A stretch of DNA of 64,000 bases from contig JBASTP010000009.1 of NCBI GenBank assembly GCA_049274945.1, positions 4,441 to 68,440 of the forward strand, given 5' to 3'. The stretch comes from Patescibacteria group bacterium (lineage in GTDB: Bacteria > Patescibacteriota > UBA1384 > GWA2-35-9 > JBASTP01). Numbering within the stretch: the first letter of the stretch is position 1; each line of letters begins with the position of its first letter. The notes beneath the pieces are model-generated. The model worked only from the letters and a program-made list of their open reading frames with translations, did no database searches and had not been told where the DNA came from. The position numbers were made by a program, and so were the translations under genes. Positions 2,764-42,962 of the stretch are shown one piece after another.

Positions 2764-2795
2764 CATGCATAGGTGATCTCACTCTTGACAACCTG

Positions 2796-2826: not shown

Positions 2827-3705
2827 ATGGAACGCGAACGGCTTACTATCACGCTGCGCAAGGACCTGCTTACCGAAGTCGACCGCACGATCGACGGTCA
2901 GCGCATCCGCAACCGATCTCACGCCATTGAGTTCCTTTTAGCGCACTCACTCACCCCGCAAGTCTCTCGGGCGATTGTGTTAGCCGGCGGCGCCGGCGTG
3001 AAGATGCGGCCACTCACCCTGGAGCTGCCCAAAGCAATGATTCCCGTGCGTGGCCGCCCGATCTTGGAGCATACCCTCGATACGCTCCGGCGGGCCGATA
3101 TTCGTAATGTTACGGTGCTCGTGGGCGCCCTGGGCGACAAGATCCGCAACCACTTTGGCGACGGTTCGGCGTTTGGTATGAAGATCGAATATGTGCAGGA
3201 AGGCAAGCGGTCGGGCACGGCCGGCGGGCTGCGCAAGGCAGCGAGCAAATCATCGGGCGAGCCGTCTTTTAGGCGAGCCTCGCCTGACGGCGGGCCGCTG
3301 CTTTTAATTTACGGCGACGTGCTGGCGGACATTGATCTTAAGGACATGATCGAGTACCACAAAGATTGCGGCGCCAAGGCCACTCTGGCGGTTACCTCGG
3401 TAGACAAGGCGACTGATTGGGGCATCGTGCGGCTGCACGGCACGCGGATTGTGAGCTTCGAGGAAAAACCAAAGAACCACGTTGGCCAGAGCCACTTGGT
3501 GAACGCCGGCGTGGCGGTGATCGAGCCAAAATTATTGGATGCTATGCCGAATGCCGGTTTTTCCATGCTCGAGCGCGACGTGTTTCCCAAGCTCGCGCGA
3601 GCCGGGCAGCTCGCCGGCTACCTCTTCGAAGGTCAGTGGTTCGATATTGCGACGCCGGAAATTTACGAAGAAGCTCTGAAGAACTGGCAGCCGGTGAAAG
3701 CGTAA
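2827..3705 (+). CDS. Sugar-phosphate nucleotidyltransferase (glucose/mannose-1-phosphate NTP-transferase family) with N-terminal ribbon-helix-helix (CopG-like) domain
   Basis: RAIVLAGGAGVKMRPLT...AMIPVRGRPILEH is the NTP-transferase G-loop; first ~45 aa (MERERLTITLRKDLLTEVDRTIDGQRIRNRSHAIEFLL) fit an RHH fold. Confidence 0.75.
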   Translation: MERERLTITLRKDLLTEVDRTIDGQRIRNRSHAIEFLLAHSLTPQVSRAIVLAGGAGVKMRPLTLELPKAMIPVRGRPILEHTLDTLRRADIRNVTVLVGALGDKIRNHFGDGSAFGMKIEYVQEGKRSGTAGGLRKAASKSSGEPSFRRASPDGGPLLLIYGDVLADIDLKDMIEYHKDCGAKATLAVTSVDKATDWGIVRLHGTRIVSFEEKPKNHVGQSHLVNAGVAVIEPKLLDAMPNAGFSMLERDVFPKLARAGQLAGYLFEGQWFDIATPEIYEEALKNWQPVKA

Positions 3706-3819: not shown

Positions 3820-4854
3820 GTGAATTTTCTGTCCAGTTTTTTAGGATGTGGGTGTAGGCAAGTGATCTGTAATTACCCGAGTCTGGCTGACATTCCACCT
3901 GAGGAGATCCCTAGGGTATTTGACCTCAGCCTTGAAGCAGAGGCGATCAGGGTCAAACCCGGAGGCTACAACGCCCATGTTATCATGATCCAGACCAAGC
4001 ACGGCAATCCTGATGTCGTCACCAAGCTTTATGGCGACAAAAAACGGGGATTCACCGAAGAGCAGGCAAGGATTGTTGCGTCTCACCTCGTCCACTATAG
4101 GATTTTGCTGACTGATTTCGGAATAGTCATCCCCCAGATGTGCGACATAGCAATCAGTGAGAACAGTGAGACAGGCATCTGGTGGGTGGTGGAAACCGAA
4201 CACTATTCCGGTTCAGACCAGCTGGCGGTGATCCGTACTGGAGCGCTCGAAAGGGTCGAGTGGGTGGTCAGGACCATGCTCGAGAGTTCGCTGCCATTTC
4301 TAACGACGGGCGAGCCGTTACCGATAGGTTTAGACCCACTACCTTCGAACTTCTGCATTTCTGAAGGTGAGACTGTCTTGACCTACGTTGATTTCATGCC
4401 GGTACGTTACGTCGAGGCCGGTGGCAGGGCGCTCGTTGAGTGGCCAGAGCCCACGACAGAACTCGGCTACAAGTTGGGGTTCTGGAAGCACTACATGGCA
4501 GTTGGTCTACTCACCGTAATGTTGACTCAGTTGTGTCGATATCGGCCTGAGTTCAGACCGCATTTCAAACGGGTCATCCTTGAGTTCCTACAACGCAATC
4601 GCGTTGGAAGGATTGCCGAGGAACTTGTCAGCTCACCAGGCTGGGAGATACGACGGACGCCAAACCTCCAAGAATTGGAAGAGCTGGTCGCTCAAAACGT
4701 CTACCACGCGCGTAATCTTGCGTGTGAATTGGCCTTCATAGGGCAGATCTCTCAGGAACAGCTCTCGGAGCTGTTCCGACTCTCTCACTTTGAAGACTCT
4801 TTTACTCTCCCGAAAATTCAATCAGTCGCGGCAGCGATTGCGGCCTTTCTCTGA
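3820..4854 (+). CDS. Hypothetical protein (possible kinase-like fold; weak)
   Basis: 344-aa ORF; followed by a convergent PHP gene; architecture resembles ORF 10980..11930. Confidence 0.45.
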   Translation: MNFLSSFLGCGCRQVICNYPSLADIPPEEIPRVFDLSLEAEAIRVKPGGYNAHVIMIQTKHGNPDVVTKLYGDKKRGFTEEQARIVASHLVHYRILLTDFGIVIPQMCDIAISENSETGIWWVVETEHYSGSDQLAVIRTGALERVEWVVRTMLESSLPFLTTGEPLPIGLDPLPSNFCISEGETVLTYVDFMPVRYVEAGGRALVEWPEPTTELGYKLGFWKHYMAVGLLTVMLTQLCRYRPEFRPHFKRVILEFLQRNRVGRIAEELVSSPGWEIRRTPNLQELEELVAQNVYHARNLACELAFIGQISQEQLSELFRLSHFEDSFTLPKIQSVAAAIAAFL

Positions 4855-4875
4855 TTTTCCTGGGTCCGATAACAC

Positions 4876-5763
4876 TCAGCTGGCCACAACATTGTGGCCA
4901 GCTTTTTTGTCAAGGTAGGTCAAGAACCCAGTGAACTCATCCTCGACTAAGCCAGTTTGGCCTAGGCTGATTTCCGGGTGGTGGATTTCGCCGTGCCAGT
5001 CGCTGCCACCGGTAATTGCCAGGTTGTGGCTTTTGGCGAGCTCAATGAAGTGGGTTACATCAGATTTACTATGACTGCTATGACGTACCTCGAGGCCATC
5101 CAATCCCCCGACGGTTAGCTGTTTTACAAGTGAAACGACGATTTCCTTGACCTGTTCGGTATTGTGGCTGCTTCGTTTGACATCGCCTGGGTGCCCTAGT
5201 ACCGCAATCCCACCAGCCCGGTGTATCAGATCAACCACTTGTTGAGGTTTTGGTACCCAATCACCGTAGGGGAGCCAGGCTGGTCCAGAGCGGCCGATTA
5301 ACTTTTGAGCTTCTTTAAGATCGAGATCATGTCTGGTCATTAATTCCTGAACTATATTGTATCTAGTTACCAGTTTTCCTTGACGCCGCTTAAGGAGTTT
5401 ATTGAAATCGATGGTGTAGTCGGTATGGCGTTTGAGTTTTTCTACGATTTTTATTGCTCGTTGTTCATAGCCTTTCCGAATCGGCTCAATAGCTTCGGCC
5501 AGTAAGCCACCTTCAAATTTTTTCGAATAACCTAGGATATGAATATCGATGCCTTGATGTTGACTTGTGATTTCAATCCCTTGGCAAGTCCACAATCCTA
5601 ACCGAGCTGCCTCGGAAATGGCCTGATCGAAGTGACCAATGCTGTTGTGGTCCGTCAGGACGACACCCTTGAGCCCGGCCTTCTTCGCTCTCTCAAAAAC
5701 GGTGGTAACATTGTAATCACCATCTGAATAGTCGGAATGGCAATGGAGATCGTAGGGATACAT
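4876..5763 (-). CDS. PHP-domain metal-dependent phosphoesterase (TrpH/YciV-like)
   Basis: Starts MYPYDLHCHSDYSDGDY...GLKGVVLTDHNS; C-terminal GGSDWHG motif. The ORF extends upstream to 5985, but the PHP domain begins at the Met at 5763. Confidence 0.8.
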   Translation of the reverse strand: MYPYDLHCHSDYSDGDYNVTTVFERAKKAGLKGVVLTDHNSIGHFDQAISEAARLGLWTCQGIEITSQHQGIDIHILGYSKKFEGGLLAEAIEPIRKGYEQRAIKIVEKLKRHTDYTIDFNKLLKRRQGKLVTRYNIVQELMTRHDLDLKEAQKLIGRSGPAWLPYGDWVPKPQQVVDLIHRAGGIAVLGHPGDVKRSSHNTEQVKEIVVSLVKQLTVGGLDGLEVRHSSHSKSDVTHFIELAKSHNLAITGGSDWHGEIHHPEISLGQTGLVEDEFTGFLTYLDKKAGHNVVAS

Positions 5764-7361: not shown

Positions 7362-8156
7362 CTAATAGCTTAAAGCCTTAATGGCTTGCAGAATCTCTTG
7401 ATGGATCAAGCCATTACTCGCCGTGAGGGTAACTTTTTTTTCGGTATCCAGGCTGATTGGCTCGGAAACCGTTACCTTGCCGCCGGCCTCGGCAACCAGG
7501 AGCATACCGCCGGCGATATCATGGGTGTTGATCCGCGCCACGGTGAAAAAATCAACTCTGCCGGCGGCCACGCTGGCAAGGTTGAGCACGGTTGATCCGA
7601 GGACGCGAAACCGTTTGATTTGCGGGCCAAGGATGTTCAGGGCTTTAAGCAGGACGGCATTATTATGGCCGGCTTCGATGATCCCAAATGATTGGGCCAA
7701 TTTGTCAGTTTTTGACACTGTGATTTTGAATGGTTTGCCGTCGCCGCTTGCAAGGTAGGCACCCTTGCCTTTTTGGGCGTAAAACAGCTCACCTTCAACC
7801 GGCGCCGATATTGCGGCAACCACTGGCTGCTTGCCCTTGAGCAGGGCAATGGAAATGGAAAAGTAGGGCAGCCCCGCGGCAAAGTTACCGGTGCCGTCGA
7901 GTGGATCGATTACCCAGGTGTAAGGGGAATCTTTTTTAATAAAGCCGGTTTCCTCGGCGAGGATATTGTGGCTCCCAAAGTTTGCCTGGATAATTTTAAT
8001 AATTGCTCGCTCGGCCTCTAGATCGGCCTCGGTTACAATATCTTTCGGGTTACCACCTTTCATTTCAACCGTTTCGATCTTGCGGAAATGCTTAAGTAAA
8101 ATCTCCGCCGCTTTGTTTACGGCATTCAGGGCAACGTTGAGCTCGTTTGATACCAT
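7362..8156 (-). CDS. Inositol monophosphatase family protein (SuhB/CysQ-like)
   Basis: WVIDPLDGTGNFAAGLPYFSISIAL signature. Confidence 0.85.
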   Translation of the reverse strand: MVSNELNVALNAVNKAAEILLKHFRKIETVEMKGGNPKDIVTEADLEAERAIIKIIQANFGSHNILAEETGFIKKDSPYTWVIDPLDGTGNFAAGLPYFSISIALLKGKQPVVAAISAPVEGELFYAQKGKGAYLASGDGKPFKITVSKTDKLAQSFGIIEAGHNNAVLLKALNILGPQIKRFRVLGSTVLNLASVAAGRVDFFTVARINTHDIAGGMLLVAEAGGKVTVSEPISLDTEKKVTLTASNGLIHQEILQAIKALSY

Positions 8157-8161
8157 AGGGC

Positions 8162-9775
8162 TTGATTGTAGCAGGTTTTTTCGCTATAATCTACGCAGTT
8201 ATGAATACCCTTCAACAACGTTTCCCGAAAGTTTACCAGGACTTTTTTTCGCAGTGTACCAAGGTGGCCTCCGCACCGCACTCGTTTTTTTGGTTTGGCG
8301 ATTTGACCGGGTTATGGGGCGGTAAGACGATAATCCAAAAACTGCCAATGCGGTTTTATGTGGGACTGCAGCCGATTAACAAAAATCGCTTCGAGGTAGA
8401 CCCAGAGTTTACCGCCTATAGCCGCATGAGCGATCAGTTTGAGACGGTGCGGTTTGATGAGTTTGTGGTGAAACGCCTGTCAACCTACGGGGTCGCCAAC
8501 CTACGAGGTTGGCGTTTGCGTTTTTTTTCGGAAGTTTCGATTGGCGTGTCGCTTGGCGCCGTTGGTGCCCTCGCCGCCTGCGTAGCCAGTCTCAAACAGT
8601 TAACCCTTAGGGTTGGCGAACCAAGAACCCTAAGGGTTAGGTATTCGGATAAGTTATTTCATGAGGCGTGGGAAATTGCCCGGTTGCTGCAAGATAACAA
8701 ATCTTCGGGCGCCAGCGCCTACGCTGCCCTTACCGAATCAGCTTACCCGATTGTTTTTTCTTCCACCTGGCCCACGTTTTCCGCCAAACCAATTGGCCCA
8801 GGGAGCGCGCCAAGTGATGATCCTGTCTGGCCGATTGATTTCGCGCTGGTATTTTCCGGCAAGATTGTTAAGGGCGAGGCGGTAGTGCGAAGCATCGAGT
8901 CGGCCAGAGATCAGCTCGTTAACGGCGGCTGGCAGACGTATCTTAACATGCTCGATCTTGTGAGCGCCGAAGGCGCCAAAGCGCTCGGGCAGCTCCTCAA
9001 AAAAGGCACGTCTGAGGCAGCGATCGAGCGACTGTTTGACCTTATGAATCAGTACCAGAACTTGCTCCACTTCGTGAATCTTTCAACACCGCAGCTTGAC
9101 ATGATTTATGGGAGTGTCCACCGGATCGCCAACAAATCGGCGAATCAAGTTGGCTCGGGCGCCAAAATTACTGGTTTGGGCAAGGGCGGCGAAATGTTGG
9201 TGGCTTTGCCATATGGCGAGCACCGCAAAGAGCTCGAAGCCTGGACTAACGAGGCCGGTTACTCGCTCGACTACGCTTCCTGGCGCGACGGTTTTTCGTC
9301 CGAGGGTGTGGTGGTAGAACAGGACATCGAGGCTGGCAAGCGTTCAGGGTTCCTCAAGGGCGATCTTGTGAAAGTTCACACTTGGCAAGAACATCACCAC
9401 CAAACTAGCCTAGAAGAATATACCAAAGTAAAACCTAAGTCATTCGATCTCTTGCTCGATCAGATAACCAATCGAGTCTATATCAAGGGTAAACCAGTAG
9501 ACTCAACCAAGTTGCCCTCGCAAAAAGCCGTGGTGACGATTGTTGGCAAGCTGCTGCAAACTGATACCTGGCAACTGGCCAATTCGGAAATCCCTTTGCC
9601 CACCTATGCCCAATCCCGCTACGACCTCCACGGCAAGGTGGTGATTCCGTTTGTAAAAGCGCTCAAGGTATCGGCGGCTGACTTCAGTCTGAAGTTGAGC
9701 GGCGGACTCTACGACGACTATACCTTGAAGTTAGAAGCCAATCGCCTTAAAATTTGTTTGGTGATGAGGTTTTGA
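8162..9775 (+). CDS. Divergent GHMP-kinase-superfamily-like protein with long C-terminal extension
   Basis: Three GHMP-like blocks: APHSFFWFGDLTGLWGG (motif I-like), SIGVSLGAVGALAACVAS (motif II-like) and SGAKITGLGKGGEMLV (motif III-like). Confidence 0.45.
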   Translation: MIVAGFFAIIYAVMNTLQQRFPKVYQDFFSQCTKVASAPHSFFWFGDLTGLWGGKTIIQKLPMRFYVGLQPINKNRFEVDPEFTAYSRMSDQFETVRFDEFVVKRLSTYGVANLRGWRLRFFSEVSIGVSLGAVGALAACVASLKQLTLRVGEPRTLRVRYSDKLFHEAWEIARLLQDNKSSGASAYAALTESAYPIVFSSTWPTFSAKPIGPGSAPSDDPVWPIDFALVFSGKIVKGEAVVRSIESARDQLVNGGWQTYLNMLDLVSAEGAKALGQLLKKGTSEAAIERLFDLMNQYQNLLHFVNLSTPQLDMIYGSVHRIANKSANQVGSGAKITGLGKGGEMLVALPYGEHRKELEAWTNEAGYSLDYASWRDGFSSEGVVVEQDIEAGKRSGFLKGDLVKVHTWQEHHHQTSLEEYTKVKPKSFDLLLDQITNRVYIKGKPVDSTKLPSQKAVVTIVGKLLQTDTWQLANSEIPLPTYAQSRYDLHGKVVIPFVKALKVSAADFSLKLSGGLYDDYTLKLEANRLKICLVMRF

Positions 9776-9788: not shown

Positions 9789-10769
9789 TTGGAAGGAGGT
9801 GGAACTGACATGGAAAGCTCAGCTGATGTTTTGTTTGATGAGCAATGGCCGATCATTGCCCAGGTCCAGACGATTCTCGATACGCGACGGGCATTGCCTA
9901 CGCACTGGTGGGAGCAGATTAGATTTGATAGCAGCCTGGCAAGGTTGGTCTCAAAGTCAGTTGGCGCTGGCTTTTATGACAGCATCCTCTATGAGGACGG
10001 TGTTAGCCTGCAACGATCGCTTTCGTCGCTGATCGGCCAGTACCGGATCAGGCAGCCTGAGATTACGAGGGTTGAACAACAGGTTGGTCAACTCAGGCTG
10101 GTCTGCAAGTATGACTCATTTGTCAACTACACCACGGAACGCTACAACCTTAAGGGTTTAGCACGGATTTACCGATCAGTGCTGGCAGGGCTGACTAGTT
10201 ATCCTGAGCTCGTTTCATACCTCGGAGAGGAGCTCAACCAACCCTCGGTCGTGGTTGATCTCTGTTGCGGCACCGGTCAGATTAGCCATTCCCTGTTCGG
10301 TAAGGTAGCCTGCCAGCGGATCTGCCTCGACCTGTCTCCGGGTATGTTACAAGACGGATTGCGGTCTGGGTATCTGGACACAAGCTACCCGTACTGTGCA
10401 AACGCTGAGCAACTGCCGCTCAGGCAGCGGGCGGTTAACCTGATGCTACTGATTTTTGGGCTCGATACCGTCGAGCGCCCTCGGCAGGTGTTAGTGGAGA
10501 TTAGCCGGGTGCTGGCGCCAGCTGGCAAGCTCTTGCTCGTCACGCCGTTGCCGTTCCGCTACACCTCTGATGGTATTCACTTCGTTACCCCGGATGATCG
10601 CGTTGGTCCTGGCGAAGACTGGCTTGAAGATCTCACGGCCCTAGCAATCTGCCTGGAAAGCGTTGACCTGCGTATCTACCGCTGGGGAGTCTCAACCTAC
10701 TACCACAGCGACATCCGCGGGCTCAAGCAATCGGCTGCCTTCACTTTCTTGATTGACCACTTTCACTAA
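9789..10769 (+). CDS. Class I SAM-dependent methyltransferase
   Basis: Motif I VVDLCCGTGQIS; post-I acidic residue; LAPAGKLLLVTP. Confidence 0.7.
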   Translation: MEGGGTDMESSADVLFDEQWPIIAQVQTILDTRRALPTHWWEQIRFDSSLARLVSKSVGAGFYDSILYEDGVSLQRSLSSLIGQYRIRQPEITRVEQQVGQLRLVCKYDSFVNYTTERYNLKGLARIYRSVLAGLTSYPELVSYLGEELNQPSVVVDLCCGTGQISHSLFGKVACQRICLDLSPGMLQDGLRSGYLDTSYPYCANAEQLPLRQRAVNLMLLIFGLDTVERPRQVLVEISRVLAPAGKLLLVTPLPFRYTSDGIHFVTPDDRVGPGEDWLEDLTALAICLESVDLRIYRWGVSTYYHSDIRGLKQSAAFTFLIDHFH

Positions 10770-10979: not shown

Positions 10980-11930
10980 ATGACTGGTGAGCTCGTGGTG
11001 CCCAAGCCGTATCGAGCTTACACGCTCGAATGGCGCAAATCTTCGGGCTATGCTGATATTTATTGTTTGGCCAACGGGACTTCCAGAGTCGTTGCCAAGC
11101 GCATCAAGAGGAACAATGGTGATTCAGGGTTCCTCGGGATGTGTACGGTCACCGAAAAGTTTAGAACAACCCTCGCTGACGTTGGAGTACCGGTGCCCGA
11201 GCTATATGAGTTTCATCAAGTGTCAAACGGAGAGTCGCCCGACGTCTGGCACATCGTATCATACGCTGGAGAAGATCTGCTCGCCCAGCTCATCAACCAC
11301 CCCCACCGCGCGCAAGAAATGGTAACGCACGTTCTCGCGGCAATCGAAGGGGTTCTCTCTCAAACCAATCGCACCTTGGGCCTTGATCCGAGGTTGTCGA
11401 ATTTTGGTGACACCTACTTCGATCTGTTTCCTCCGCTGATTGTGTTGTCTGGGATGCCGTATGTCCACTACCCCAATCCCACCGATCCGAAACTCATCGA
11501 GCGGGAATTGGAGCGTAAGTTTACGCCCGAGGGGATCGTTCGCCGGTTGCGGTTTGAGCTGATGGTGCACAACCCCCAATGGGACCGACTTATTTCAGCA
11601 ACGGTGAGTCGGATCTACTGCGAACCGTTACGTTCACGGTTGACTGACTACCTAAGCCAATTGCCAGACAATCGAGTGGACCCTGAGACCAAGGACCGGA
11701 GTCAGATCGGCGAGTTAATCCACCGCTGCATAGCGGTTGACGACATTGACTCGCTACGGGAAATTGCGGCGAAGATTATTCCGGTATCAAATGGCCGCCA
11801 CGTAACGATGAACGATGTTTTTCACCTCACGAGCCATTTCCATAGTTCCAGCAACTATCCAGCTTCTCGAGCCCAACGGCTTGAGATGTTCCTCACAATG
11901 ATGGAAACCTACCTTTCCTCAAAGGGTTAG
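10980..11930 (+). CDS. Hypothetical protein (possible kinase-like fold; weak)
   Basis: 316-aa ORF; convergent with PHP gene 11927..12829; no confident family. Confidence 0.45.
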   Translation: MTGELVVPKPYRAYTLEWRKSSGYADIYCLANGTSRVVAKRIKRNNGDSGFLGMCTVTEKFRTTLADVGVPVPELYEFHQVSNGESPDVWHIVSYAGEDLLAQLINHPHRAQEMVTHVLAAIEGVLSQTNRTLGLDPRLSNFGDTYFDLFPPLIVLSGMPYVHYPNPTDPKLIERELERKFTPEGIVRRLRFELMVHNPQWDRLISATVSRIYCEPLRSRLTDYLSQLPDNRVDPETKDRSQIGELIHRCIAVDDIDSLREIAAKIIPVSNGRHVTMNDVFHLTSHFHSSSNYPASRAQRLEMFLTMMETYLSSKG

Positions 11931-12829
11931 CCGCGTTCGGCTACCCTTTTTTGTATCTGACGAGTTATGAGCTTGAATTCGTTCATGGTGACGCCACCAT
12001 CCCCCAGATATCGGTCCGGGCTTTTAACAAATCCATGCCAGTCAGAACCACCGGTCTCAAGCAACTTATACTGTTTAGCGAGTTTACGGTAATGTTGTAG
12101 TTGTTTAGGCGTGTGTTTGGCGGATCTGACCTCGAGCGCATCCAAACCATGATGAGCCAGGTTGGGTATAAGTTTTTCAATGAGTTCTTCGAGCTTGTTA
12201 TTTGGAAGATCGTTGAATCCACGGTAGTTGCCGGGATGGGCCAGCGTGGCAATGCCACCGGCGTTATGGATAAGCGTTATTGCTTTTGCCGGCGACATCG
12301 CCCAAGCCGCGGTGCCAACTGGGACATAGGCGGCACCGCCACCGTGCATTAATTCCCGAGCTTCACCGAGCGGAATGTTTCGTTCTTTGGCAATGGCGGT
12401 TGAAATGTGGTACTTGACCACAACTAGTCCATTTGGCAATGTGCGAGCAATATCCTCATACTTTAGCTTGGTGGCGCCAGAGCCCCGGAGTTTTGCAAGC
12501 ATCGTTTCCGCTCTCTCCTTCATACCTTCGAGCGTTTCATGGAGACCACTGTTGAGCACCGCTAGGTTAAAGTTGTTGCTATAACCAATGATGTGAACTT
12601 CCATGCGTTTATATTTGGTCGAGATTTCAACTCCTTCAAGGGTCTGGAGAGAGAATTTGTTCGCCAGGCGCCGGTAGGTCCCGCCGAGTCCTTTCGTCAC
12701 GTCGTGCTCAGTAAGCACGATCCCTTTTAGTCCAGCTCGCTTCGCCTCGCGAAAGACTCGGGTAGGTGGATAATCTCCGTCAGACCAATTAGAGTGCACG
12801 TGCAGGTCGCATGGAAATTTTGGTTTCAT
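11927..12829 (-). CDS. PHP-domain metal-dependent phosphoesterase (TrpH/YciV-like), paralog of 4876..5763
   Basis: CDLHVHSNWSDGDY...GLKGIVLTEHD and ETGGSDWHG; roughly 40% identical to the other PHP protein. Confidence 0.8.
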   Translation of the reverse strand: MKPKFPCDLHVHSNWSDGDYPPTRVFREAKRAGLKGIVLTEHDVTKGLGGTYRRLANKFSLQTLEGVEISTKYKRMEVHIIGYSNNFNLAVLNSGLHETLEGMKERAETMLAKLRGSGATKLKYEDIARTLPNGLVVVKYHISTAIAKERNIPLGEARELMHGGGAAYVPVGTAAWAMSPAKAITLIHNAGGIATLAHPGNYRGFNDLPNNKLEELIEKLIPNLAHHGLDALEVRSAKHTPKQLQHYRKLAKQYKLLETGGSDWHGFVKSPDRYLGDGGVTMNEFKLITRQIQKRVAERG

Positions 12830-12883: not shown

Positions 12884-13816
12884 TTAATAGTTGAATAGTT
12901 TGATGATTTGGCGGGCAGCCCGGTCGACATCATCGTTGACTACATAGACATCGATCGATTGAGCAGTGTCTGCTAGGTGCCGGACGGCTCGTTCTAGTCG
13001 CCGCATCAGGGCATCTTCGGTAACCGTTCCCTTGGAAGATCTTTGGGAACGTTCCTCGGCAGAGCGTGTCCTCGCCCGCCGAGCCATTTCCTCGAGCGAC
13101 GGCGGTAGTAGAAAAACCAAGACAAATGGGATATCGTGCAATGCAGCCTCGGTTTTAATATTTCTCGCTGTCCCCGCACCCGAATCAATGTAGAATTGTT
13201 CACCTCGTGATAATGCTTCAAGAAGCTGCTGTTTTGGTATGCCAGCTTTGTTCTCAATAGCCCCAGTGGCTTTATCAATAGCTTCGGTCGGGCAGAGGAT
13301 TTCGCCTGCCGCCTTCTGGCGTTCGTATTCATCATCGCTCAAAAAGATGTAATCAACGCCTTCAACCTCACCAGGTCTCGGAGCTCTCGTATTGACGCGC
13401 GGCAGACGGCGAATGCCCGCATCCTCGAGTTTTTTGCCAACAGTGCCTTTGCCTGCTCCGGATGGAGCAGTCAGCACCAAAAACCGAGGGGCAACATCAC
13501 GCCGCTCAAATTGCTCTAAGGTGAATCGCTCGAGGTTGCTTGGGATTGTATTTGGCTGGTGTTCATCCAACTTGTGCTGCTGCGCTACGCTAATGAGTGC
13601 AGCATTCCAAGCTTGAATTAGTTGATTCATGGTTTGCTCCATAACAAGGTACTGGGTCGAACGGACCTCTGTTAGTTTATACTTTTCGTGTTGAGATGTC
13701 AACCTTATTACACCCACACCGCCAAAATGGCACCCGATACCGCCAGCACGATTAGGTGGTAGCTTAAACGCAGCTCTGGCTAATACGGCGAGATAGTTAA
13801 TAGTGACATCAGTCAT
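12884..13816 (-). CDS. gmk: Guanylate kinase with ~100-aa N-terminal extension (true start may be internal)
   Basis: P-loop LVLTAPSGAGKGTVGKKL; RLPRVNTRAPRPGEVEGVDYIFLS matches the GMP-binding region. Confidence 0.7.
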   Translation of the reverse strand: MTDVTINYLAVLARAAFKLPPNRAGGIGCHFGGVGVIRLTSQHEKYKLTEVRSTQYLVMEQTMNQLIQAWNAALISVAQQHKLDEHQPNTIPSNLERFTLEQFERRDVAPRFLVLTAPSGAGKGTVGKKLEDAGIRRLPRVNTRAPRPGEVEGVDYIFLSDDEYERQKAAGEILCPTEAIDKATGAIENKAGIPKQQLLEALSRGEQFYIDSGAGTARNIKTEAALHDIPFVLVFLLPPSLEEMARRARTRSAEERSQRSSKGTVTEDALMRRLERAVRHLADTAQSIDVYVVNDDVDRAARQIIKLFNY

Positions 13817-16164: not shown

Positions 16165-17886
16165 TTGGTTATGTCCAAACGAGTACCGCTTGCGCTCGCA
16201 GTGGTTCTGGTTATTGTTGGATTGAGGAGCGGCGCTCCCCAAGACTCAGAAAACCCCTACCGTTGGTCTCGGCCGGTGCGAGGGACTATCCATAGTCATT
16301 CGATTTACAGCAACGACCTTACCTTTCAGATGCGCGGGATGGTCAAAGATCTTGACCACCGCTTTTCCGAAGACGTCGAGGCGATGATTAAGCGAGCTGA
16401 GCGGCTCGGGCTCAACTTTTTGTTGCTCCAGGACCACGGCGAAAAGCTGGCCCTCGGTCACTGGTACCATGAGGGTGAGCTTGAACGCAATAGCGATAGG
16501 GTTAACTTCGCCGGCGGCCCTAGCTACGGCCTGCTCTGGGTGGTGCGGGGATTCGAATGGACCCAAGGCAGCTTGGTTGATTCCAAGCCAGTGCCTCACA
16601 AGGCGCGCGAGGGCGAGATCAACCATGTTGGCGTGTTCCGGACAGAAGACTTTACCGGCACTTCGCTGCGGCCAGAAACCGGCATGCCGGTCAGCTCAAA
16701 TCTAGCAGCGCTCTATCGTTGGTTGCTTATGCACGATCCAAACAAAGTCTTCTGCTCGTTCAATCACCCGAGCTATGGCTCAAGCCAGTTCAACGACTTC
16801 GCCATTCCCGCTGGCATGGAACATATTGTAGATTATTTTCGGATGATCGAGGTCGGCTCCGGTTCGTCGATTTTCTACGAGGGGCCTGACAAGCTCGAAA
16901 GGCATTACCAAAAAGCGCTCCAGCGCGGCTGGCGACTCATGCCGGCAATCGGCGCTGACAATCCAGGCAAGTTGACTTACCAAAATGCCCGCAAACGCCA
17001 CACCGCGGTCTGGGTGGATAACGTGCGGGGCCAGCACCCATTTTTCGACCACGTCCGGGAGTGTTGCGGCTTTGCGAGCGAGGACGAGGACGCGGTGGCT
17101 GAGTTGTGGTTCACCGGCGTGCACGACGCAATGGGGTTCGATCGTCGCAACCCGGTGATGGGGCAGCGCGATTGGCTCTACTGCGATGTTTACCCGCCGA
17201 CGCTCAATTACCGCGTATACGATCAAGGTAAGGCCGAAGGTTGGCGCCAGATTAAGATCGTTCGCGTGCGGCAAAATCAGATTGATGAGTCCACGGTCGG
17301 TCGCATCGAGGGTCGTCTCGTCATCGAACCGAGCTTTGACGATATTTGTTTTTACCTCAAGGCACAGCAGCTCGATGGCGACATGCTGCTGACTGCCCCG
17401 ATTTGGGTGACCAACCGGCAGCTGCTCGTAAGTGGCGCGGTCACTCACCCCTGGCTTGGCGTGCTGCGCTGGGAACTCCATGGCATTCGCCAGGGCGAGC
17501 GCAACGGCCATCCGGTCATGCCGCCCATCCAGCCAGAACTCAGGTTGCGGGCTAGCCAGCTGGCCATCCCGGAAGATTGGCAGCTTAGGATCGACTGGGT
17601 GAAACCGACCCCCAACCGCGACATTAGCGCGGCATACTATCAGACAGTTAGACCGACCGTGATTGACCGTGCGAATCTCACCCTCTTTCCTCCTACCGAA
17701 TTTGCGACGTCTCCGTTCAAGGACCGCTGTGGGGGTCAGTTTCCAGACCCGGCGTCGAGTGCAAATCTGGACGAAGGCGATACTCGCTACCACATCAATC
17801 TCTATTGGTACTCGTCAAGCTCCGGAGCAGAGTCAGCGCCAGTTTTGACGATCCCTTTTTACATCAGACCGCTCAACTTCCGTTGA
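16165..17886 (+). CDS. Secreted hypothetical protein with N-terminal PHP-like metal-binding block
   Basis: Signal peptide MVMSKRVPLALAVVLVIVGLRSGAP; RGTIHSHSIYSNDLTF...LGLNFLLLQDHGE resembles the start of a PHP domain. Confidence 0.55.
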   Translation: MVMSKRVPLALAVVLVIVGLRSGAPQDSENPYRWSRPVRGTIHSHSIYSNDLTFQMRGMVKDLDHRFSEDVEAMIKRAERLGLNFLLLQDHGEKLALGHWYHEGELERNSDRVNFAGGPSYGLLWVVRGFEWTQGSLVDSKPVPHKAREGEINHVGVFRTEDFTGTSLRPETGMPVSSNLAALYRWLLMHDPNKVFCSFNHPSYGSSQFNDFAIPAGMEHIVDYFRMIEVGSGSSIFYEGPDKLERHYQKALQRGWRLMPAIGADNPGKLTYQNARKRHTAVWVDNVRGQHPFFDHVRECCGFASEDEDAVAELWFTGVHDAMGFDRRNPVMGQRDWLYCDVYPPTLNYRVYDQGKAEGWRQIKIVRVRQNQIDESTVGRIEGRLVIEPSFDDICFYLKAQQLDGDMLLTAPIWVTNRQLLVSGAVTHPWLGVLRWELHGIRQGERNGHPVMPPIQPELRLRASQLAIPEDWQLRIDWVKPTPNRDISAAYYQTVRPTVIDRANLTLFPPTEFATSPFKDRCGGQFPDPASSANLDEGDTRYHINLYWYSSSSGAESAPVLTIPFYIRPLNFR

Positions 17887-20253: not shown

Positions 20254-21435
20254 TTAACGCTCGTAGGTTGTGGGTTTCGAGAATGATCCGCTGCCTGAGC
20301 AGCTAGCTTGGGTGAGTTCGACTTGCATGGTGGTGGCGTTCGTTAGCTGGATAAGTAACGATCCGCTGCGGGCGATATTGCCAGAGCCCGGTTGGGCATC
20401 GGTCTGGTAGCAGTACACGGTGCCATCGGGTTTTACCTCACTAAACTCGCGATTGATCGTGCCCTCGTGTTTTGGCATAAACGCAATCTTAGTGGGGCTA
20501 CCAATCACTCCGCCGATCGAAGCAATACCCACTGATGGATCAAAGTTATCGTGAACGAGGGCAATACTTTTATCCCAGTTACCCGGTTGATCAATCAGAT
20601 CGCTGGCTTTTACGCCGGTAATCCAGTCGCCTTGGGCCGTTCCTGGAACGTCCTGGTTCACCTCGCCGCAGCGCGGTTCGATGGTGCGTTTGGTTCGAGA
20701 CGACCCGAGTTTTTCATAGAGTGTGGCTTTAGTGGCTTCGTCAAACAAATCGAGCGGGCACACGAAGTGCAGGGCATCGGAGCGGTAGCGTTTGGGGTTA
20801 GCGTAGGGCTTGCCCGATTGCCGCCGATCAACCGCTTGAATGTCCAGGCCGGTTGCCGTGCCGCCCCCGGCGGTGCCGATGATTTCTCCAGCTTTCATGG
20901 CGTAGTTTAATTGGGCGCGGCAGTAGGTGTAGTCGTCGCCGGGCCGGGGCACCTGGGTATCACACGAGGGCCTCGCGGCTTCAAACGCCGCCTGCAATTG
21001 CGGCGAAATGCTCGTAACGTGGCCAAAGTTTAACCGCACGTCTTTGCACGCGGTAATATCGAGGGCGTAGTCATCGCTCCAAACCGCGCCTTGTTTTTTG
21101 GCGGTATTGTGATTGATCGATTGGACAACAATATCGCCCGGGGCGCGCACGGGCCTATCGTAGGCCGGATCGATGGTGTTGTTTTCTTTAATTACCACGT
21201 AGATGTGGTCGGTGGGGACGGTGTGGTCGGGCGGGCTCAAGTTACCCAGTGGGGTGATCGAAAGAAAATCTGTTGGGGCAATCGGGGAAGCGGTAAACAT
21301 GCCGCCAGGGGCGCACTCTGGCCCACCAATGGTATTTACTAGTTTAGGTGTACGCCGGCGTAGTTCACCGACCACCATCGTAAAAAATACCGCGACCAAG
21401 ATAACAACTAACCCAACGACAATTTTTTTGAGCAT
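20254..21435 (-). CDS. Membrane-anchored/secreted hypothetical protein
   Basis: N-terminal TM MLKKIVVGLVVILVAVFFTMVV; 393 aa, Gly/Thr/Ser-rich extracytoplasmic part; no family recognised. Confidence 0.55.
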   Translation of the reverse strand: MLKKIVVGLVVILVAVFFTMVVGELRRRTPKLVNTIGGPECAPGGMFTASPIAPTDFLSITPLGNLSPPDHTVPTDHIYVVIKENNTIDPAYDRPVRAPGDIVVQSINHNTAKKQGAVWSDDYALDITACKDVRLNFGHVTSISPQLQAAFEAARPSCDTQVPRPGDDYTYCRAQLNYAMKAGEIIGTAGGGTATGLDIQAVDRRQSGKPYANPKRYRSDALHFVCPLDLFDEATKATLYEKLGSSRTKRTIEPRCGEVNQDVPGTAQGDWITGVKASDLIDQPGNWDKSIALVHDNFDPSVGIASIGGVIGSPTKIAFMPKHEGTINREFSEVKPDGTVYCYQTDAQPGSGNIARSGSLLIQLTNATTMQVELTQASCSGSGSFSKPTTYER

Positions 21436-35449: not shown

Positions 35450-35776
35450 ATGATATCGATCATAACCAAGTATCGGCATAGGCGTCGAAGACAAGTCAGT
35501 GCGCAAATCAATTTTCCACCGGATCAATACCAAGGCCCCTGGATATGGAATAAGGTGGTTGGAGCATTTCTGGTTGCGGTTGCGGGGGCGCTTCTTTTCA
35601 ATTACTTTTTGCCATGGTCCATCATAACGTTTTTTTTGGAACCTCTCCGATATCCAATCGCATACGTAGCTCGCGTGTGCGATTTTTGTTATTTGCATTA
35701 TCAGCAGAGTAGTGTCAATATATATCTTGACCTTGCAGTTGGTCTCGCCCTTAAACAATTGACGGGAGATGATTAA
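35450..35776 (+). CDS. Small 2-3-TM membrane protein (cassette copy 1)
   Basis: QGPWIWNKVVGAFLVAVAGALLFNYFLPW parallels YGFWTWDRIFFGLLVASVGSLITLFFGPYW in 38015..38356. Confidence 0.5.
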   Translation: MISIITKYRHRRRRQVSAQINFPPDQYQGPWIWNKVVGAFLVAVAGALLFNYFLPWSIITFFLEPLRYPIAYVARVCDFCYLHYQQSSVNIYLDLAVGLALKQLTGDD

Positions 35777-36884
35777 TATGTTTTTGCCCGGTGAATCGCA
35801 ATTGCTCGACGTAATGACTCGTGTTGCCGCTCAGAAGGATCATGGGATTGGCCACGTCCTGCGCGTTGGCTGCTACGTTCGGCTGATTATGGAAAAGACA
35901 GGGGGCTTTACGCCGGAAGCTTGTGAGCGAGTAGAGATGATTGCCCGCATCCACGACATTGGCAACACCGTGATCCTCGATACGATCCTGGATAAACAAG
36001 ACCCTCTAATCGATTGGGAACGATTGGAAATTGCCCAACATTCGGTAGCCGGTTGTGAAATGTTAGGCAATGTTTTTCATGAATTTTTGCCAATGATCCG
36101 CCACCATCATGAAAATTGGGACGCGAGCGGTTATCCCGATCACCTGGCTGGCGAACGAATTCCGCCTATGGCCCGGATTCTGCGGATGGCTGACGCCTTT
36201 GACGCCATGACCAGTTGGCGGCCGTACCGCATAAATCCGATCAATGTTGATCAAGCTATCCAGCAATTAAGAACCAAAGCCGGAATCGAGTTTGACCCAA
36301 AGCTCGTGCCAGTATTTGCGGACCAGGTTGATAAAATCAGCGCCATCATCAAGTGGATAGGCAATAGTACGCCACTCCATCATGACAGTCGTCTGGCGAT
36401 TGACTTTAACGTTATTGCTGGAGGGGCGGCCCTTACTGACGCATGGCATAGTAAGAGCCATGCGTTCCTAAATTTTCCGGAGAATCCCGGCGTGGTTGAC
36501 TTGCTTCGGGAACTTTCCTGCCGCTACTTCCGGGGTTGGGTTTTTATCTGGCCAAACTCGTCGAGAGAATGGAATGATCACAAGCAAGACCAGTGGTTAC
36601 GCCACCACCATGTTTTCGATCGCGCCTGCATTGCAAATTGGTCACTGGACTATTATATGTGTAATGTTGTTACAGCGTGCCGAGATTCGGCAATCTCACA
36701 CTTCATCGGATATGATCCAGAAACCCTCAAAAAACTATTGGGAATAGTGCCGAACTTATACCTTTTCAGACGAGATTCACTTCGCATCCCTGTCGACTTA
36801 AGGATTAAGGTTGCTAACTCAACCCAGCAACTCACTAATTCGATCATCCAACCCTGGCCCATGGCAATTCCTCCAGAGGCGTAA
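35769..36884 (+). CDS. HD-GYP domain protein (c-di-GMP phosphodiesterase family) with uncharacterised ~170-aa C-terminal domain
   Basis: HDIGNTVI ... HHHENWDASGYPDHLAGERIPPMARILRMADAFDAMTSWRPYR is the HD-GYP signature. Confidence 0.8.
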   Translation: MINMFLPGESQLLDVMTRVAAQKDHGIGHVLRVGCYVRLIMEKTGGFTPEACERVEMIARIHDIGNTVILDTILDKQDPLIDWERLEIAQHSVAGCEMLGNVFHEFLPMIRHHHENWDASGYPDHLAGERIPPMARILRMADAFDAMTSWRPYRINPINVDQAIQQLRTKAGIEFDPKLVPVFADQVDKISAIIKWIGNSTPLHHDSRLAIDFNVIAGGAALTDAWHSKSHAFLNFPENPGVVDLLRELSCRYFRGWVFIWPNSSREWNDHKQDQWLRHHHVFDRACIANWSLDYYMCNVVTACRDSAISHFIGYDPETLKKLLGIVPNLYLFRRDSLRIPVDLRIKVANSTQQLTNSIIQPWPMAIPPEA

Positions 36885-42686: not shown

Positions 42687-42962
42687 ATGAAAACCGCCAA
42701 GTTGCCCTCGTTTTTCCAATCAATTTTTTGGGACACCCGGCTTGCAAATATTGACTACAAAAAACATTCCCGCTATGTGATCGAGCGTGTGCTCCAGTGG
42801 GGCAGGCCCCAGCACGTACGCTGGCTACTCGGCCACTATTCGAAACGCATGATTTTGCATGTGGCAAAAACCGGGCGGGAAGTCCGCCCAGAGCGCAAAT
42901 ATTTCTGGAAGTTCTATTTAACTCACCAACGAAAAAAACGAACAAAATTATATGCACACTGA
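42687..42962 (+). CDS. Small basic hypothetical protein, candidate partner (antitoxin/regulator) of the AbiEii-like gene
   Basis: 91-aa ORF directly upstream of, and overlapping by 11 nt, the AbiEii-like gene; no family recognised; AT-rich. Confidence 0.4.
   Translation: MKTAKLPSFFQSIFWDTRLANIDYKKHSRYVIERVLQWGRPQHVRWLLGHYSKRMILHVAKTGREVRPERKYFWKFYLTHQRKKRTKLYAH

What the first reader, a model, noticed from the sequence alone, without database searches (positions are those of the whole stretch)
3820..5763. Two paralogous convergent gene pairs: hypothetical ~330-aa protein followed by a TrpH-like PHP phosphoesterase
Pair 1 is 3820..4854(+) with 4876..5763(-). Pair 2 is 10980..11930(+) with 11927..12829(-). 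The PHP proteins are clear paralogs, sharing HxHSxxSDGDY...GLKG(V/I)VLT(D/E)H and a C-terminal GGSDWHG. The partner proteins have similar length and weakly similar blocks (TYVDFMP / TYFDLFP). A conserved convergent pairing implies a functional link, for example substrate generation and hydrolysis. This adds to an unusual density of nucleotide phosphatases in the window: SuhB, NrnA, a secreted PHP-like protein and YjjX.
Basis: inference. Interest (0 to 1): 0.5.

Follow-up and report, generated by a model that had tools for sequence, protein, structure and literature searches.

The report
Kinase-like genes paired with PHP phosphoesterases
In this ultra-small (Patescibacteria) bacterium, two very distant copies of an unstudied kinase-like enzyme each sit tail-to-tail with a metal-dependent phosphate-removing enzyme, and in other genomes the same kinase-like family mostly keeps company with enzymes that make activated sugars, so it is a modest, untested lead to a precursor-activation pathway.

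Summary
The two PHP proteins are 35% identical (E 1e-61). The two partners are distant homologues (22% identity, E 2e-9).

The partners belong to one uncharacterised family of about 333 clusters, only weakly related to Pfam DUF6206. AlphaFold models (pLDDT 95.5 and 92.8) show a protein-kinase-like fold with the catalytic Lys, Asp-x4-Asn and Mg-binding Asp intact. They lie on opposite sides of the deepest split in a midpoint-rooted tree, so this is not a recent tandem duplication.

The tail-to-tail PHP pairing recurs in two other genomes, as a three-gene module: RHH-nucleotidyltransferase → kinase-like ← PHP. It is not universal. About 11 of 18 family loci have a sugar-1-phosphate-type nucleotidyltransferase nearby. 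Thirteen of 18 have some phosphohydrolase nearby: PHP, EndoQ-like PHP, PP2C (once fused), HD, His_Phos_1, NUDIX, EEP or Inositol_P. A TrmB-like regulator is also frequent.

My best reading is small-molecule kinases that feed a nucleotidyltransferase, with the PHP supplying a phosphatase step, similar in logic to MupP–AmgK–MurU. Confidence is about 0.35. The substrate is unknown and nothing has been tested biochemically. Interest is moderate.

The parts
2827..3705 (+). Nucleotidyltransferase of the sugar-1-phosphate type, with an N-terminal extension of about 45 aa that looks like a ribbon-helix-helix domain. It lies co-directionally, 115-156 bp upstream of kinase-like gene 1.
   Evidence: Pfam NTP_transferase, E 9.5e-36. 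The best NCBIfam hits are mannose-1-P guanylyltransferase, archaeal GlmU and MurU, all below their cut-offs. Orthologues at 44-52% identity sit directly upstream of family members in L010, L012, L017, L018 and L023. The GGAGVKMRPLT motif is read directly from the sequence. The RHH call is my reading of the sequence and is untested.
3862..4854 (+). Kinase-like gene 1 (PKL1, 330 aa from GTG 3862; the open frame begins at 3820). Predicted catalytic residues: K55 (4024), D158 (4333), N163 (4348), D177 (4390).
4878..4903 (+). Terminator-like hairpin (11-bp stem followed by a T run) just after the PKL1 stop codon. It lies inside the last codons of PHP1.
   Evidence: sequence. This is a consensus match only.
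4876..5763 (-). PHP1, a TrpH/YciV-type PHP phosphoesterase (295 aa), convergent with PKL1.
   Evidence: Pfam PHP 52 bits. NCBIfam 3',5'-nucleoside bisphosphate phosphatase 125 bits (cut-off 400) and RNase RNM 103 bits (cut-off 375). PDB relatives 3e0f, 7ug9 and 2yb1. All metal ligands present.
7362..8156 (-). Inositol-monophosphatase-family (SuhB-like) gene. Genes of this family recur near kinase-like family members in other genomes.
   Evidence: Not run through Pfam here. It is 32% identical (E 4e-40) to the gene Pfam-annotated Inositol_P next to the family member in L015/L016. L010 also carries an Inositol_P gene.
8162..9775 (+). GHMP-kinase-like protein (537 aa), first gene of the co-directional run GHMP-like → methyltransferase → PKL2.
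   Evidence: Weak NCBIfam mevalonate kinase match to the C-terminal part only (E 7e-8). No Pfam hit. An orthologue at 83% identity has the same gene order in L001.
9789..10769 (+). SAM-dependent methyltransferase directly upstream of PKL2.
   Evidence: Pfam Methyltransf_11/25. An orthologue at 52% identity has the same gene order in L001. A methyltransferase also lies next to the family member in L019-L022.
10980..11930 (+). Kinase-like gene 2 (PKL2, 316 aa). Predicted catalytic residues: K40 (11097), D136 (11385), N141 (11400), D148 (11421). R260 (11757) is invariant in the family.
11928..11943 (+). Terminator-like hairpin followed by a T run, starting at the PKL2 stop codon and lying inside the 3' end of PHP2.
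   Evidence: This is a consensus match only.
11927..12829 (-). PHP2, a TrpH/YciV-type PHP phosphoesterase (300 aa), convergent with PKL2 and overlapping it by 4 bp.
   Evidence: Pfam PHP 34.7 bits. NCBIfam 148 bits (cut-off 400) and 119 bits (cut-off 375). PDB relatives 7ug9 and 2yb1. All metal ligands present.
12884..13816 (-). Guanylate-kinase-like protein (310 aa, with an N-terminal extension of about 100 aa) downstream of PHP2.
   Evidence: Pfam Guanylate_kin, E 2.8e-13. TIGR03263 scores 97 bits against a cut-off of 160. Homologues at 32-40% identity lie next to family members in L010 and L013.

Best explanation
PKL1 and PKL2 are two anciently diverged, catalytically competent members of an uncharacterised protein-kinase-like family. 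So far it has been seen in Patescibacteria MAGs and in unclassified metagenome contigs.

I propose that they are ATP-dependent small-molecule kinases. Each would phosphorylate a sugar or an alcohol-type head group. A neighbouring nucleotidyltransferase would then convert the phosphorylated product into an NDP- or CDP-activated cell-envelope precursor.

The adjacent TrpH-like PHP enzymes would supply the phosphatase step of the same route. That step could come first, stripping a phosphate from the wrong position to release the kinase substrate. This would be a mutase bypass: X-6-P → X → X-1-P → NDP-X, as in MupP–AmgK–MurU. Alternatively, it could come last, dephosphorylating the product after transfer.

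**Shown:** the homology, the fold, the intact catalytic residues, the intact trinuclear metal site, and the recurrence of the gene neighbourhoods.

**Inferred:** kinase activity, the class of substrate, the order of the steps, and any coupling to the PHP enzymes.
For: **Fold and active site**
- The models have pLDDT 95.5 and 92.8.
- Lys, G-x-D-x4-N-F and the Asp of Y-x-D-x-F-P-P are invariant or nearly so across 90 and across 143 family members, and are present in both window proteins.
- The catalytic loop GLDPRLSNF lines up with HGDPKITNF of an APH-family kinase.

**Nucleotidyltransferase link**
- An NTP_transferase lies immediately upstream and co-directional in the window, L010, L012, L017, L018 and L023.
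- It also lies within a few genes in L003, L006 (two copies), L011b, L013 and L019-L022.
- L019-L022 is a tight operon: CDP-OH_P_transf, NTP_transferase, His_Phos_1, kinase-like gene, methyltransferase.

**Phosphatase link**
- A TrpH-like PHP gene lies convergent and downstream in the window (twice), L011 and L018.
- An EndoQ-like protein of the PHP superfamily (TIGR00375) lies co-directional and downstream in L002, L011b and L014-L016.
- A PP2C gene is adjacent in L003 and L005, and is fused to the kinase-like domain in P0036.
- An HD-domain gene follows in L009.
- The phosphohydrolase changes family from locus to locus while the kinase-like gene stays. This suggests a phosphatase step is needed.
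- PHP2 belongs to the same PHP clade as the type-1-associated PHPs, yet it sits beside a kinase-like gene from the other half of the tree. This looks like a second, independent association.

**Sugar context**
- A TrmB-like regulator lies beside seven or more loci.
- GlmS lies in L018 and a class II FBPase in L006.
- Class II FBA and a SuhB-like gene lie between the two pairs in the window.

**Precedent for the logic:** MupP, AmgK and MurU (PMC5371407).
Against: - There is no biochemical evidence of any kind.
- The PHP genes are convergent with the kinase-like genes, not co-transcribed with them.
- The PHP adjacency holds in only 4 of about 15 informative loci. Three of those four are orthologous type-1 loci, which could simply have inherited their gene order.
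- All characterised TrpH-type PHP enzymes act on nucleotides or RNA (pAp and other 3',5'-bisphosphates, 5'-3' exonuclease), not on sugar phosphates (PMC9410882, PMC7261194).
- Both window PHPs retain part of the 5'-phosphate pocket.
- A PP2C fusion is more typical of protein phosphorylation.
- In L003 and L007 a separate APH-family kinase is present and could itself be the sugar kinase.
- PKL2 has no nucleotidyltransferase within five genes.
- An EndoQ-like neighbour does not fit a sugar pathway easily.
- All sampled loci come from related, small genomes, so they are not independent observations.
Confidence: 0.35

Rival explanations
1. The kinase-like proteins are atypical protein (Ser/Thr or Tyr) kinases, and the neighbouring phosphohydrolases are their opposing protein phosphatases. 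On this view each pair is a regulatory switch, as in Stk/Stp or BY-kinase/CpsB, and the switch controls envelope-precursor enzymes encoded nearby.
For: - P0036 is a PP2C::kinase-like fusion, and PP2C genes lie adjacent in L003 and L005.
- PP2C enzymes are, from established knowledge, nearly always protein phosphatases.
- The PHP superfamily contains protein tyrosine phosphatases (PMC10816263).
Against: - The longest structural alignments are to small-molecule kinases.
- The sequence shows no APE or activation-segment motif.
- The window PHPs are of the TrpH type with an insertion domain, not the short CpsB/YwqE type.
- This reading does not explain the tight co-directional coupling to a nucleotidyltransferase, or the operon with CDP-OH_P_transf and His_Phos_1.
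Confidence: 0.2
2. The pairs have no direct functional link. PHP1 and PHP2 are housekeeping nucleotide/RNA enzymes (pAp phosphatase, RNase AM or nanoRNase type). Their position beside the kinase-like genes reflects inherited gene order in related, compact genomes, plus one chance or neutral rearrangement.
For: - The genes are convergent, and each kinase-like gene has its own terminator-like hairpin.
- The adjacency is absent in most loci.
- Wider synteny is conserved between the window and L006: S1 protein, a membrane protein, a Lactamase_B_3 gene and an SBP-like gene.
- The best family matches for the PHPs are nucleotide and RNA enzymes.
Against: - The adjacency survives at only 31-36% kinase-like identity and 36-43% PHP identity.
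- It occurs with kinase-like genes from both halves of the family tree.
- A second PHP-superfamily type (TIGR00375) follows the kinase-like gene co-directionally in three further loci.
- Thirteen of 18 loci have some phosphohydrolase within two genes.
- The random expectation for the double adjacency is 6e-4 or lower.
Confidence: 0.2
3. The system is nucleotide-centred. The kinase-like proteins phosphorylate a nucleoside or nucleotide, for example at the 3' position. The TrpH-like PHP enzymes remove that phosphate or trim short RNAs. The whole would work in nucleotide salvage or signalling together with the guanylate-kinase-like, NUDIX, SpoT-like HD and NrnA-like neighbours.
For: - Characterised TrpH-type enzymes hydrolyse 3',5'-bisphosphonucleotides and 5'-phosphorylated RNA (PMC9410882; PMC7261194 and PMC11528712).
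- Both PHPs keep Arg110 of the RNase AM 5'-phosphate pocket. At position 141, PHP1 keeps Arg and PHP2 has Lys.
- GMK-like genes neighbour the family in the window, L010 and L013.
- NUDIX lies in L014-L016 and a SpoT-like HD in L009.
- An NrnA-like gene lies in the window.
- Type-2 members carry a conserved basic motif, RKF..G.LRRLRF.
Against: - Arg107, the base-stacking Phe161 and Arg201 are not conserved in either PHP.
- To my knowledge, no kinase-like-fold nucleotide 3'-kinase is known.
- This reading does not explain the TrmB, GlmS, FBA/FBPase and CDP-alcohol transferase contexts.
- GMK and NrnA may simply be housekeeping genes that happen to lie nearby.
Confidence: 0.15

Closest known systems
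Pfam DUF6206 (PF19709), a family of unknown function
   Same: It is the only sequence family that detects the partner proteins at all. PKL2 matches at E 1.4e-4. Of 90 family members, 61 hit it at E ≤ 1e-3. The match covers the N-lobe through the catalytic loop.
   Different: The window proteins fall below the gathering cut-off: PKL2 scores 21.6 bits against 30.4, and PKL1 does not hit. The best E-value among the 90 scanned members was only 1.1e-8, so this looks like a sister group rather than membership. DUF6206 is itself uncharacterised, and I found no paper that mentions it.
APH / choline-kinase-type small-molecule kinases of the protein-kinase-like superfamily (APH(3'), MPH, amicoumacin kinase AmiN, LicA, NahK, AmgK)
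   Different: There is no Pfam APH hit. The catalytic loop reads G-[LI]-D rather than H-x-D. Sequence identity is 7-16%. The C-terminal helical domain, with its invariant Arg, is only partly matched. The substrate is unknown.
MupP–AmgK–MurU anabolic MurNAc recycling route of Pseudomonas (PMC5371407)
   Same: The logic is the same: a phosphatase, a kinase-fold anomeric kinase and a nucleotidyltransferase together convert a sugar phosphate into an NDP-sugar. In the window, the nucleotidyltransferase's third-best NCBIfam hit is MurU.
   Different: The phosphatase here is a PHP, not a HAD enzyme. The kinase is not an AmgK/APH family member. The MurU match is 119 bits against a cut-off of 250. The resemblance lies in gene content only and is not tested.
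TrpH/YciV-type PHP enzymes: Cv1693 3',5'-nucleoside bisphosphate phosphatase (2yb1), E. coli RNase AM (7ug9), BAD_1165 (3e0f)
   Same: The alignments run the full length, including the insertion domain. All nine metal ligands are conserved. E-values to these structures are 1e-17 to 1e-28.
   Different: Both proteins are far below the NCBIfam equivalog cut-offs. Of the five substrate-contacting residues reported for RNase AM (R107, R110, R141, F161, R201), PHP1 keeps two. PHP2 keeps one and has a conservative Lys at a second.
Stk/Stp-type kinase–PP2C phosphatase gene pairs
   Same: A kinase-fold gene is adjacent to, or fused with, a PP2C phosphatase in L003, L005 and P0036.
   Different: That arrangement is not present in the window, where PHP takes the place of PP2C. 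The kinase-like protein lacks the motifs of the Hanks-kinase activation segment.

Membership tests
Protein-kinase-like (PKL) fold superfamily | Bilobal kinase fold | tested here: met
Protein-kinase-like (PKL) fold superfamily | ATP-anchoring Lys in strand β3 | tested here: met
   K40 (PKL2) and K55 (PKL1) are present. The Lys is conserved in 97% of 143 family members.
Protein-kinase-like (PKL) fold superfamily | Catalytic loop D-x4-N, followed by a Mg-binding Asp (the DFG equivalent) | tested here: met
   D136, N141 and D148 in PKL2; D158, N163 and D177 in PKL1. The Asn and the second Asp are invariant, and the first Asp is 99% conserved.
Protein-kinase-like (PKL) fold superfamily | His two residues before the catalytic Asp (HxD / HRD / HGD) | tested here: not met
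   Both window proteins read G-L-D, and the family consensus is G-[IL]-D.
Pfam DUF6206 (PF19709) | Score at or above the gathering cut-off of 30.4 bits | tested here: not met
   PKL2 scores 21.6 bits. PKL1 has no hit at E ≤ 0.1.
Pfam APH (PF01636) / AmgK-type anomeric kinases | Significant match to the family profile | tested here: not met
   There is no Pfam or NCBIfam hit. hhalign against an APH protein aligns only the 13-residue catalytic loop, with probability 1%.
PHP domain, TrpH/YciV subfamily | PHP domain above the Pfam cut-off, with the complete set of ligands for the trinuclear metal centre | tested here: met
   PHP1 scores 52 bits and PHP2 34.7 bits, against a cut-off of 26.4. Ligands in PHP1: H7, H9, D14, H39, E64, H75, H191, D255, H257. 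The equivalents are present in PHP2 (compared with PMC9410882).
PHP domain, TrpH/YciV subfamily | Insertion domain between the two halves of the barrel; full-length similarity to 2yb1, 7ug9 and 3e0f | tested here: met
   The alignments span residues 4-268 of the queries against 4-266 of the solved chains.
3',5'-nucleoside bisphosphate phosphatase (NF041577) / RNase RNM (NF047791) equivalogs | Score at or above the curated cut-off (400 and 375 bits) | tested here: not met
   PHP1 scores 125 and 103 bits. PHP2 scores 148 and 119 bits.
3',5'-nucleoside bisphosphate phosphatase / RNase AM | 5'-phosphate and base pocket: R107, R110, R141, F161, plus R201 (E. coli numbering) | tested here: inconclusive
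   By pairwise alignment, PHP1 has Y, R, R, A, D at these positions and PHP2 has M, R, K, A, N. The alignment in the insertion domain is uncertain.
MupP–AmgK–MurU-type salvage module | Kinase product is the substrate of the adjacent nucleotidyltransferase, and the phosphatase supplies the kinase substrate | not testable with these tools
   Only the gene order (nucleotidyltransferase → kinase-like ← PHP) is shown, in three genomes.
Known anti-phage defence systems (PADLOC) | Match to any defence-protein model | tested here: not met
   There were no hits for either kinase-like protein, either PHP, or the GHMP-like and GMK-like neighbours.

The most novel reading that the evidence does not exclude
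The kinase-like family and its interchangeable phosphohydrolase partner (TrpH-like PHP, EndoQ-like PHP, PP2C including one fusion, SpoT-like HD, His_Phos_1) form a previously unrecognised kinase/phosphatase couple in Patescibacteria. The couple would write and erase a phosphate on a nucleotide-type or envelope-precursor metabolite. On this reading it is a regulatory or signalling cycle, for example a 3'-phosphorylated nucleotide made by a kinase-fold enzyme, rather than a linear biosynthetic step.
Probability: 0.08. Interest if true: 0.75.

Novelty: new variant of a known kind. Interest (0 to 1): 0.4.

Why it matters
Patescibacteria have tiny genomes with many missing pathways, and a large share of their conserved genes have no assigned function.

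This work gives a fold and a probable chemistry (ATP-dependent phosphotransfer) to a family of about 333 sequence clusters. Every named member I checked is annotated only as 'hypothetical protein'. It also defines a recurring three-gene module (RHH-nucleotidyltransferase → kinase-like ← PHP). These proteins could be expressed and assayed directly.

If the module proves to be a phosphatase/kinase/nucleotidyltransferase route to an activated sugar or head group, it would show how these bacteria build or salvage envelope precursors without the standard enzymes. It would also extend the substrate range of TrpH-type PHP enzymes beyond nucleotides.

If the pairing is only inherited gene order, the result is still an ordinary but useful fold annotation.

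Tried and rejected
**Recent segmental duplication: rejected.**
- blastn between the two regions finds only one 56-nt match at 71% identity.
- The kinase-like proteins lie on opposite sides of the midpoint root of the family tree.

**Defence system: rejected.** There are no PADLOC hits. The rest of the window is ordinary chromosome: aminoacyl-tRNA synthetases, SecA, MreBC, PBP2.

**Sequence search of the PDB with the family profile.** It returned only spurious matches to helical or designed proteins.

**hhalign of the family profile against an APH kinase.** Not significant.

**The search for related loci**
- With seven sequences it used a single pattern and returned two loci from each of the genome and metagenome collections.

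**Third homologous-protein search, with the profile.** It scored only 8000 candidates and returned 7 proteins.

**AlphaFold-database fold search.** Not available.

**Literature**
- No paper mentions DUF6206.
- A search for MurU in Patescibacteria papers matched only the author names Murugkar and Murugapiran.
- No paper links AmgK with the candidate phyla radiation.

**Other elements in the window.** The window has no TrmB, TIGR00375, PP2C, APH or EEP homologue by BLAST, and no third kinase-like paralogue.

Neither was found among the ORFs I scanned. Three large ORFs have no Pfam hit: 16165..17886, 20254..21435 and 39697..41271. Small ORFs were not scanned.
Full report
**1. What is in the sequence**

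The window comes from a 79.7-kb contig of a 'Patescibacteria group bacterium' MAG, locus tags WAP74_03430 and WAP74_03465.

The four ORFs exist as described:
- Partner 1 is 3820..4854(+). NCBI starts it at GTG 3862, giving 330 aa.
- PHP1 is 4876..5763(-).
- Partner 2 is 10980..11930(+).
- PHP2 is 11927..12829(-).

Pair 1 is separated by 21 bp, and pair 2 overlaps by 4 bp. Each + strand gene is followed at once by a terminator-like hairpin and a T run. These lie at 4878-4903 (11-bp stem) and 11928-11943, inside the last codons of the convergent PHP gene.

**2. The PHP proteins**

They are 35% identical, E 1e-61. Both pass the Pfam PHP cut-off.

Both align over their full length, insertion domain included, with the solved TrpH/YciV-type enzymes. 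These are 3e0f, 7ug9 (RNase AM) and 2yb1 (the Cv1693 3',5'-bisphosphate nucleotidase).

All nine ligands of the trinuclear metal site are present (compared with PMC9410882).

They are not equivalogs of the characterised enzymes. They score 103-148 bits against cut-offs of 375-400.

Five substrate-contacting residues are reported for RNase AM: R107, R110, R141, F161 and R201. By alignment, PHP1 has Y, R, R, A, D at these positions and PHP2 has M, R, K, A, N. The family assignment is therefore safe. The substrate is open.

**3. The partner proteins**

They are homologous: 22% identity over 260 aa, pairwise E 2e-9.

In a 5.8-billion-protein index, PKL2 has only two relatives besides itself. PKL1 has none.

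A profile search of 1.84 billion representatives found 333 clusters, 230 of them at E ≤ 1e-10. Named members are all annotated as 'hypothetical protein', for example in Candidatus Kerfeldbacteria.

Pfam DUF6206 is the only related model, and it is weak. PKL2 scores 21.6 bits against a cut-off of 30.4, and PKL1 does not hit. Of 90 members, 61 hit at E ≤ 1e-3.

Conserved positions are a Lys (K40 / K55), G-x-D-x4-N-F (D136, N141 / D158, N163), Y-x-D-x-F-P-P (D148 / D177) and an Arg (R260 / R284).

The TYVDFMP / TYFDLFP block is the DFG-equivalent Mg site.

The loop reads G-L-D rather than the usual H-x-D. There is no APE or activation segment in the sequence.

**4. Are the two pairs one duplicated module?**

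No. The closest relatives of PKL1 are P0048, P0063, P0064, P0077 and P0042, at 31-36% identity. The closest relatives of PKL2 are P0002, P0003 and P0005-P0007, at 37-79%.

In a midpoint-rooted neighbour-joining tree of 143 members, their last common ancestor is the root.

A Kerfeldbacteria contig also carries two paralogues, a type-1 member (P0064) and P0059. P0059 groups with the type-2 half of the tree, but outside the clade that holds PKL2 and its close relatives.

The PHPs tell a different story. PHP1, PHP2 and the PHPs of L011 and L018 are all 35-43% identical to each other.

There is no DNA-level similarity between the two regions. The window holds only two kinase-like genes.

**5. Neighbourhoods elsewhere**

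I examined 18 family genes on 23 fetched loci. Many contigs are short.

*Type-1 clade*
- The window, L011+L012 (Kerfeldbacteria, P0064) and L018 (P0042) share a three-gene module: RHH-nucleotidyltransferase → kinase-like ← TrpH-like PHP.
- L010 has nucleotidyltransferase → kinase-like ← guanylate-kinase-like ← Inositol_P.
- L017 has nucleotidyltransferase → kinase-like.
- L009 has kinase-like ← SpoT-like HD.
- L019-L022 form an operon: methyltransferases, CTP_transf_3, CDP-OH_P_transf, NTP_transferase, His_Phos_1, kinase-like, methyltransferase.

*The other half of the tree*
- L001 repeats the window's GHMP-like → methyltransferase → PKL2 order.
- L002, L011b and L014-L016 have TrmB → (NTP_transferase or NUDIX) → kinase-like → TIGR00375. 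The last is an EndoQ-like protein of the PHP superfamily.
- L003 and L005 have TrmB → kinase-like → PP2C → APH → EEP → NTP_transferase.
- In L007 and L008 the kinase-like domain is fused to an N-terminal PP2C domain (P0036), between an APH gene and an EEP gene.
- L006 has the kinase-like gene between two nucleotidyltransferase genes, next to a class II FBPase.
- L013 has GMK-like, EEP, TrmB, kinase-like and NTP_transferase.
- L023 has nucleotidyltransferase → kinase-like ← AI-2E-family transporter-like gene, identified from its sequence.

*Tally*
- NTP_transferase lies within about three genes in roughly 11 of 18 loci.
- TrpH-like PHP is the immediate downstream neighbour in 4 of about 15 informative loci.
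- A PHP-superfamily protein is the downstream neighbour in 7 of about 15.
- Some phosphohydrolase lies within two genes in 13 of 18.
- TrmB lies beside seven or more loci.

**6. Interpretation**

The kinase fold and the intact active sites are well supported.

The most consistent partner is a nucleotidyltransferase of the sugar-1-phosphate type. It is often directly upstream and co-directional. This is the classic arrangement of kinase plus nucleotidyltransferase activation routes. From my own knowledge, examples are AmgK/MurU, LicA/LicC and NahK with a uridylyltransferase.

A phosphohydrolase is nearly always nearby, but its family changes from locus to locus. I read that as non-orthologous displacement of a required phosphatase step.

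In the Pseudomonas MurNAc route, a phosphatase (MupP), an anomeric kinase (AmgK) and a nucleotidyltransferase (MurU) act in series (PMC5371407). The window module has the same three activities, built from different protein families.

The sugar context fits: TrmB, GlmS in L018, FBPase in L006, and FBA and a SuhB-like gene between the two pairs in the window. I put this reading at about 0.35.

The rivals are set out in the report sections:
- a protein kinase/phosphatase switch, favoured by the PP2C fusion and the Bud32/RIO hits;
- a nucleotide-centred system, favoured by what TrpH enzymes are known to do and by the GMK, NUDIX, HD and NrnA neighbours;
- no functional link, favoured by the convergent orientation, the minority of loci with the adjacency, and the relatedness of the genomes.

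**7. Limits**

- The neighbourhood sample is small and was not drawn at random.
- The genomes are related, and many contigs are truncated.
- No substrate can be read from these data.

**8. Verdict**

The fold prediction is confirmed.

The functional-link idea is partly supported. It needs to be reframed around a three-gene module that includes the upstream nucleotidyltransferase.

This is an uncharacterised variant within a well-known enzyme superfamily, in a lineage full of unknowns. It is a reasonable experimental lead of moderate interest, not a surprise.

Noticed in passing
window 2827-2970 (N-terminus of the 2827..3705 protein); also L012 3-884: The nucleotidyltransferase carries an N-terminal extension of about 45 aa, RLTITLRKDLLTEVDRTIDGQRIRNRSHAIEFLL. 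It reads like a ribbon-helix-helix (CopG/Arc-type) DNA-binding domain. The same extension is present in the L012 orthologue, which suggests an enzyme fused to its own repressor. The RHH call is from the sequence only and is untested.
   Followed up: partly
window 4878-4903 and 11928-11943: Both kinase-like genes end with a + strand terminator-like hairpin and T run that lies inside the 3' coding end of the convergent PHP gene. The two transcripts of each pair would therefore overlap antisense by some tens of bases.
   Followed up: partly
L007 8001-9773 and L008 2279-4051 (protein P0036): This is a 590-aa fusion of an N-terminal PP2C/SpoIIE-like phosphatase with the kinase-like domain. It is flanked by an APH-family kinase gene and an Exo_endo_phos gene. 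The same four genes occur unfused in L003.
   Followed up: partly
L002 1951-2256; L011 4903-6231; L014 1700-3094 (the same gene in L015 and L016): A protein of 442-464 aa follows the kinase-like gene co-directionally in three separate loci. It is EndoQ-like (NCBIfam TIGR00375, Pfam MJ0043_C), with a PHP-type N-terminus (YADLHIHS). It scores 149-162 bits against a cut-off of 326.
   Followed up: partly
window 2681-2764 and 13915-14000 (also 14372-14444 and 14537-14609): The whole block from the nucleotidyltransferase to the guanylate-kinase-like gene (2827-13816) is bracketed by two tRNA-Leu genes (CAG and GAG). tRNA-Phe and tRNA-Val follow. GC content is not unusual there.
   Followed up: no
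window 8162-9775: This 537-aa protein matches only the C-terminal part of GHMP (mevalonate) kinases. Its phosphate-binding motif looks degenerate (SIGVSLGAVGALAA), and it has a C-terminal extension of about 170 aa. It is conserved at 83% identity with the same gene order in L001.
   Followed up: partly
window 12884-13816: This guanylate-kinase-like protein has an N-terminal extension of about 100 aa and scores below the TIGR03263 cut-off (97 against 160 bits). Homologues recur next to kinase-like family members in L010 and L013.
   Followed up: partly
window 36000-38000 and 42952-43575: A low-GC stretch (0.446) holds an IS200-like Y1 transposase ORF (37039..37725). An HD_5 protein lies upstream (35769..36884). 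An AbiEii-type nucleotidyltransferase toxin ORF lies at 42952..43575, just before mreB.
   Followed up: no
window 6993-7361: A gene for a 23S rRNA intervening-sequence protein (PF05635, four-helix bundle) sits between the class II aldolase gene and the SuhB-like gene.
   Followed up: no
window 1596-2540(-), 16165-17886, 20254-21435(-), 26360-31315, 39697-41271: Four of these large ORFs have no Pfam family. The first begins with a zinc-ribbon-like motif, CLHCGEQGHSGGVCPSC. The 1651-aa ORF at 26360..31315 was not scanned.
   Followed up: no
L006 (867-kb contig Ga0082335_1000007) compared with the window: Several window genes have counterparts near the family member in L006. These are the S1-domain protein, a small membrane protein, a Lactamase_B_3 protein and an SBP_bac_5-like protein. 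This shows that part of the shared neighbourhood is plain synteny.
   Followed up: partly
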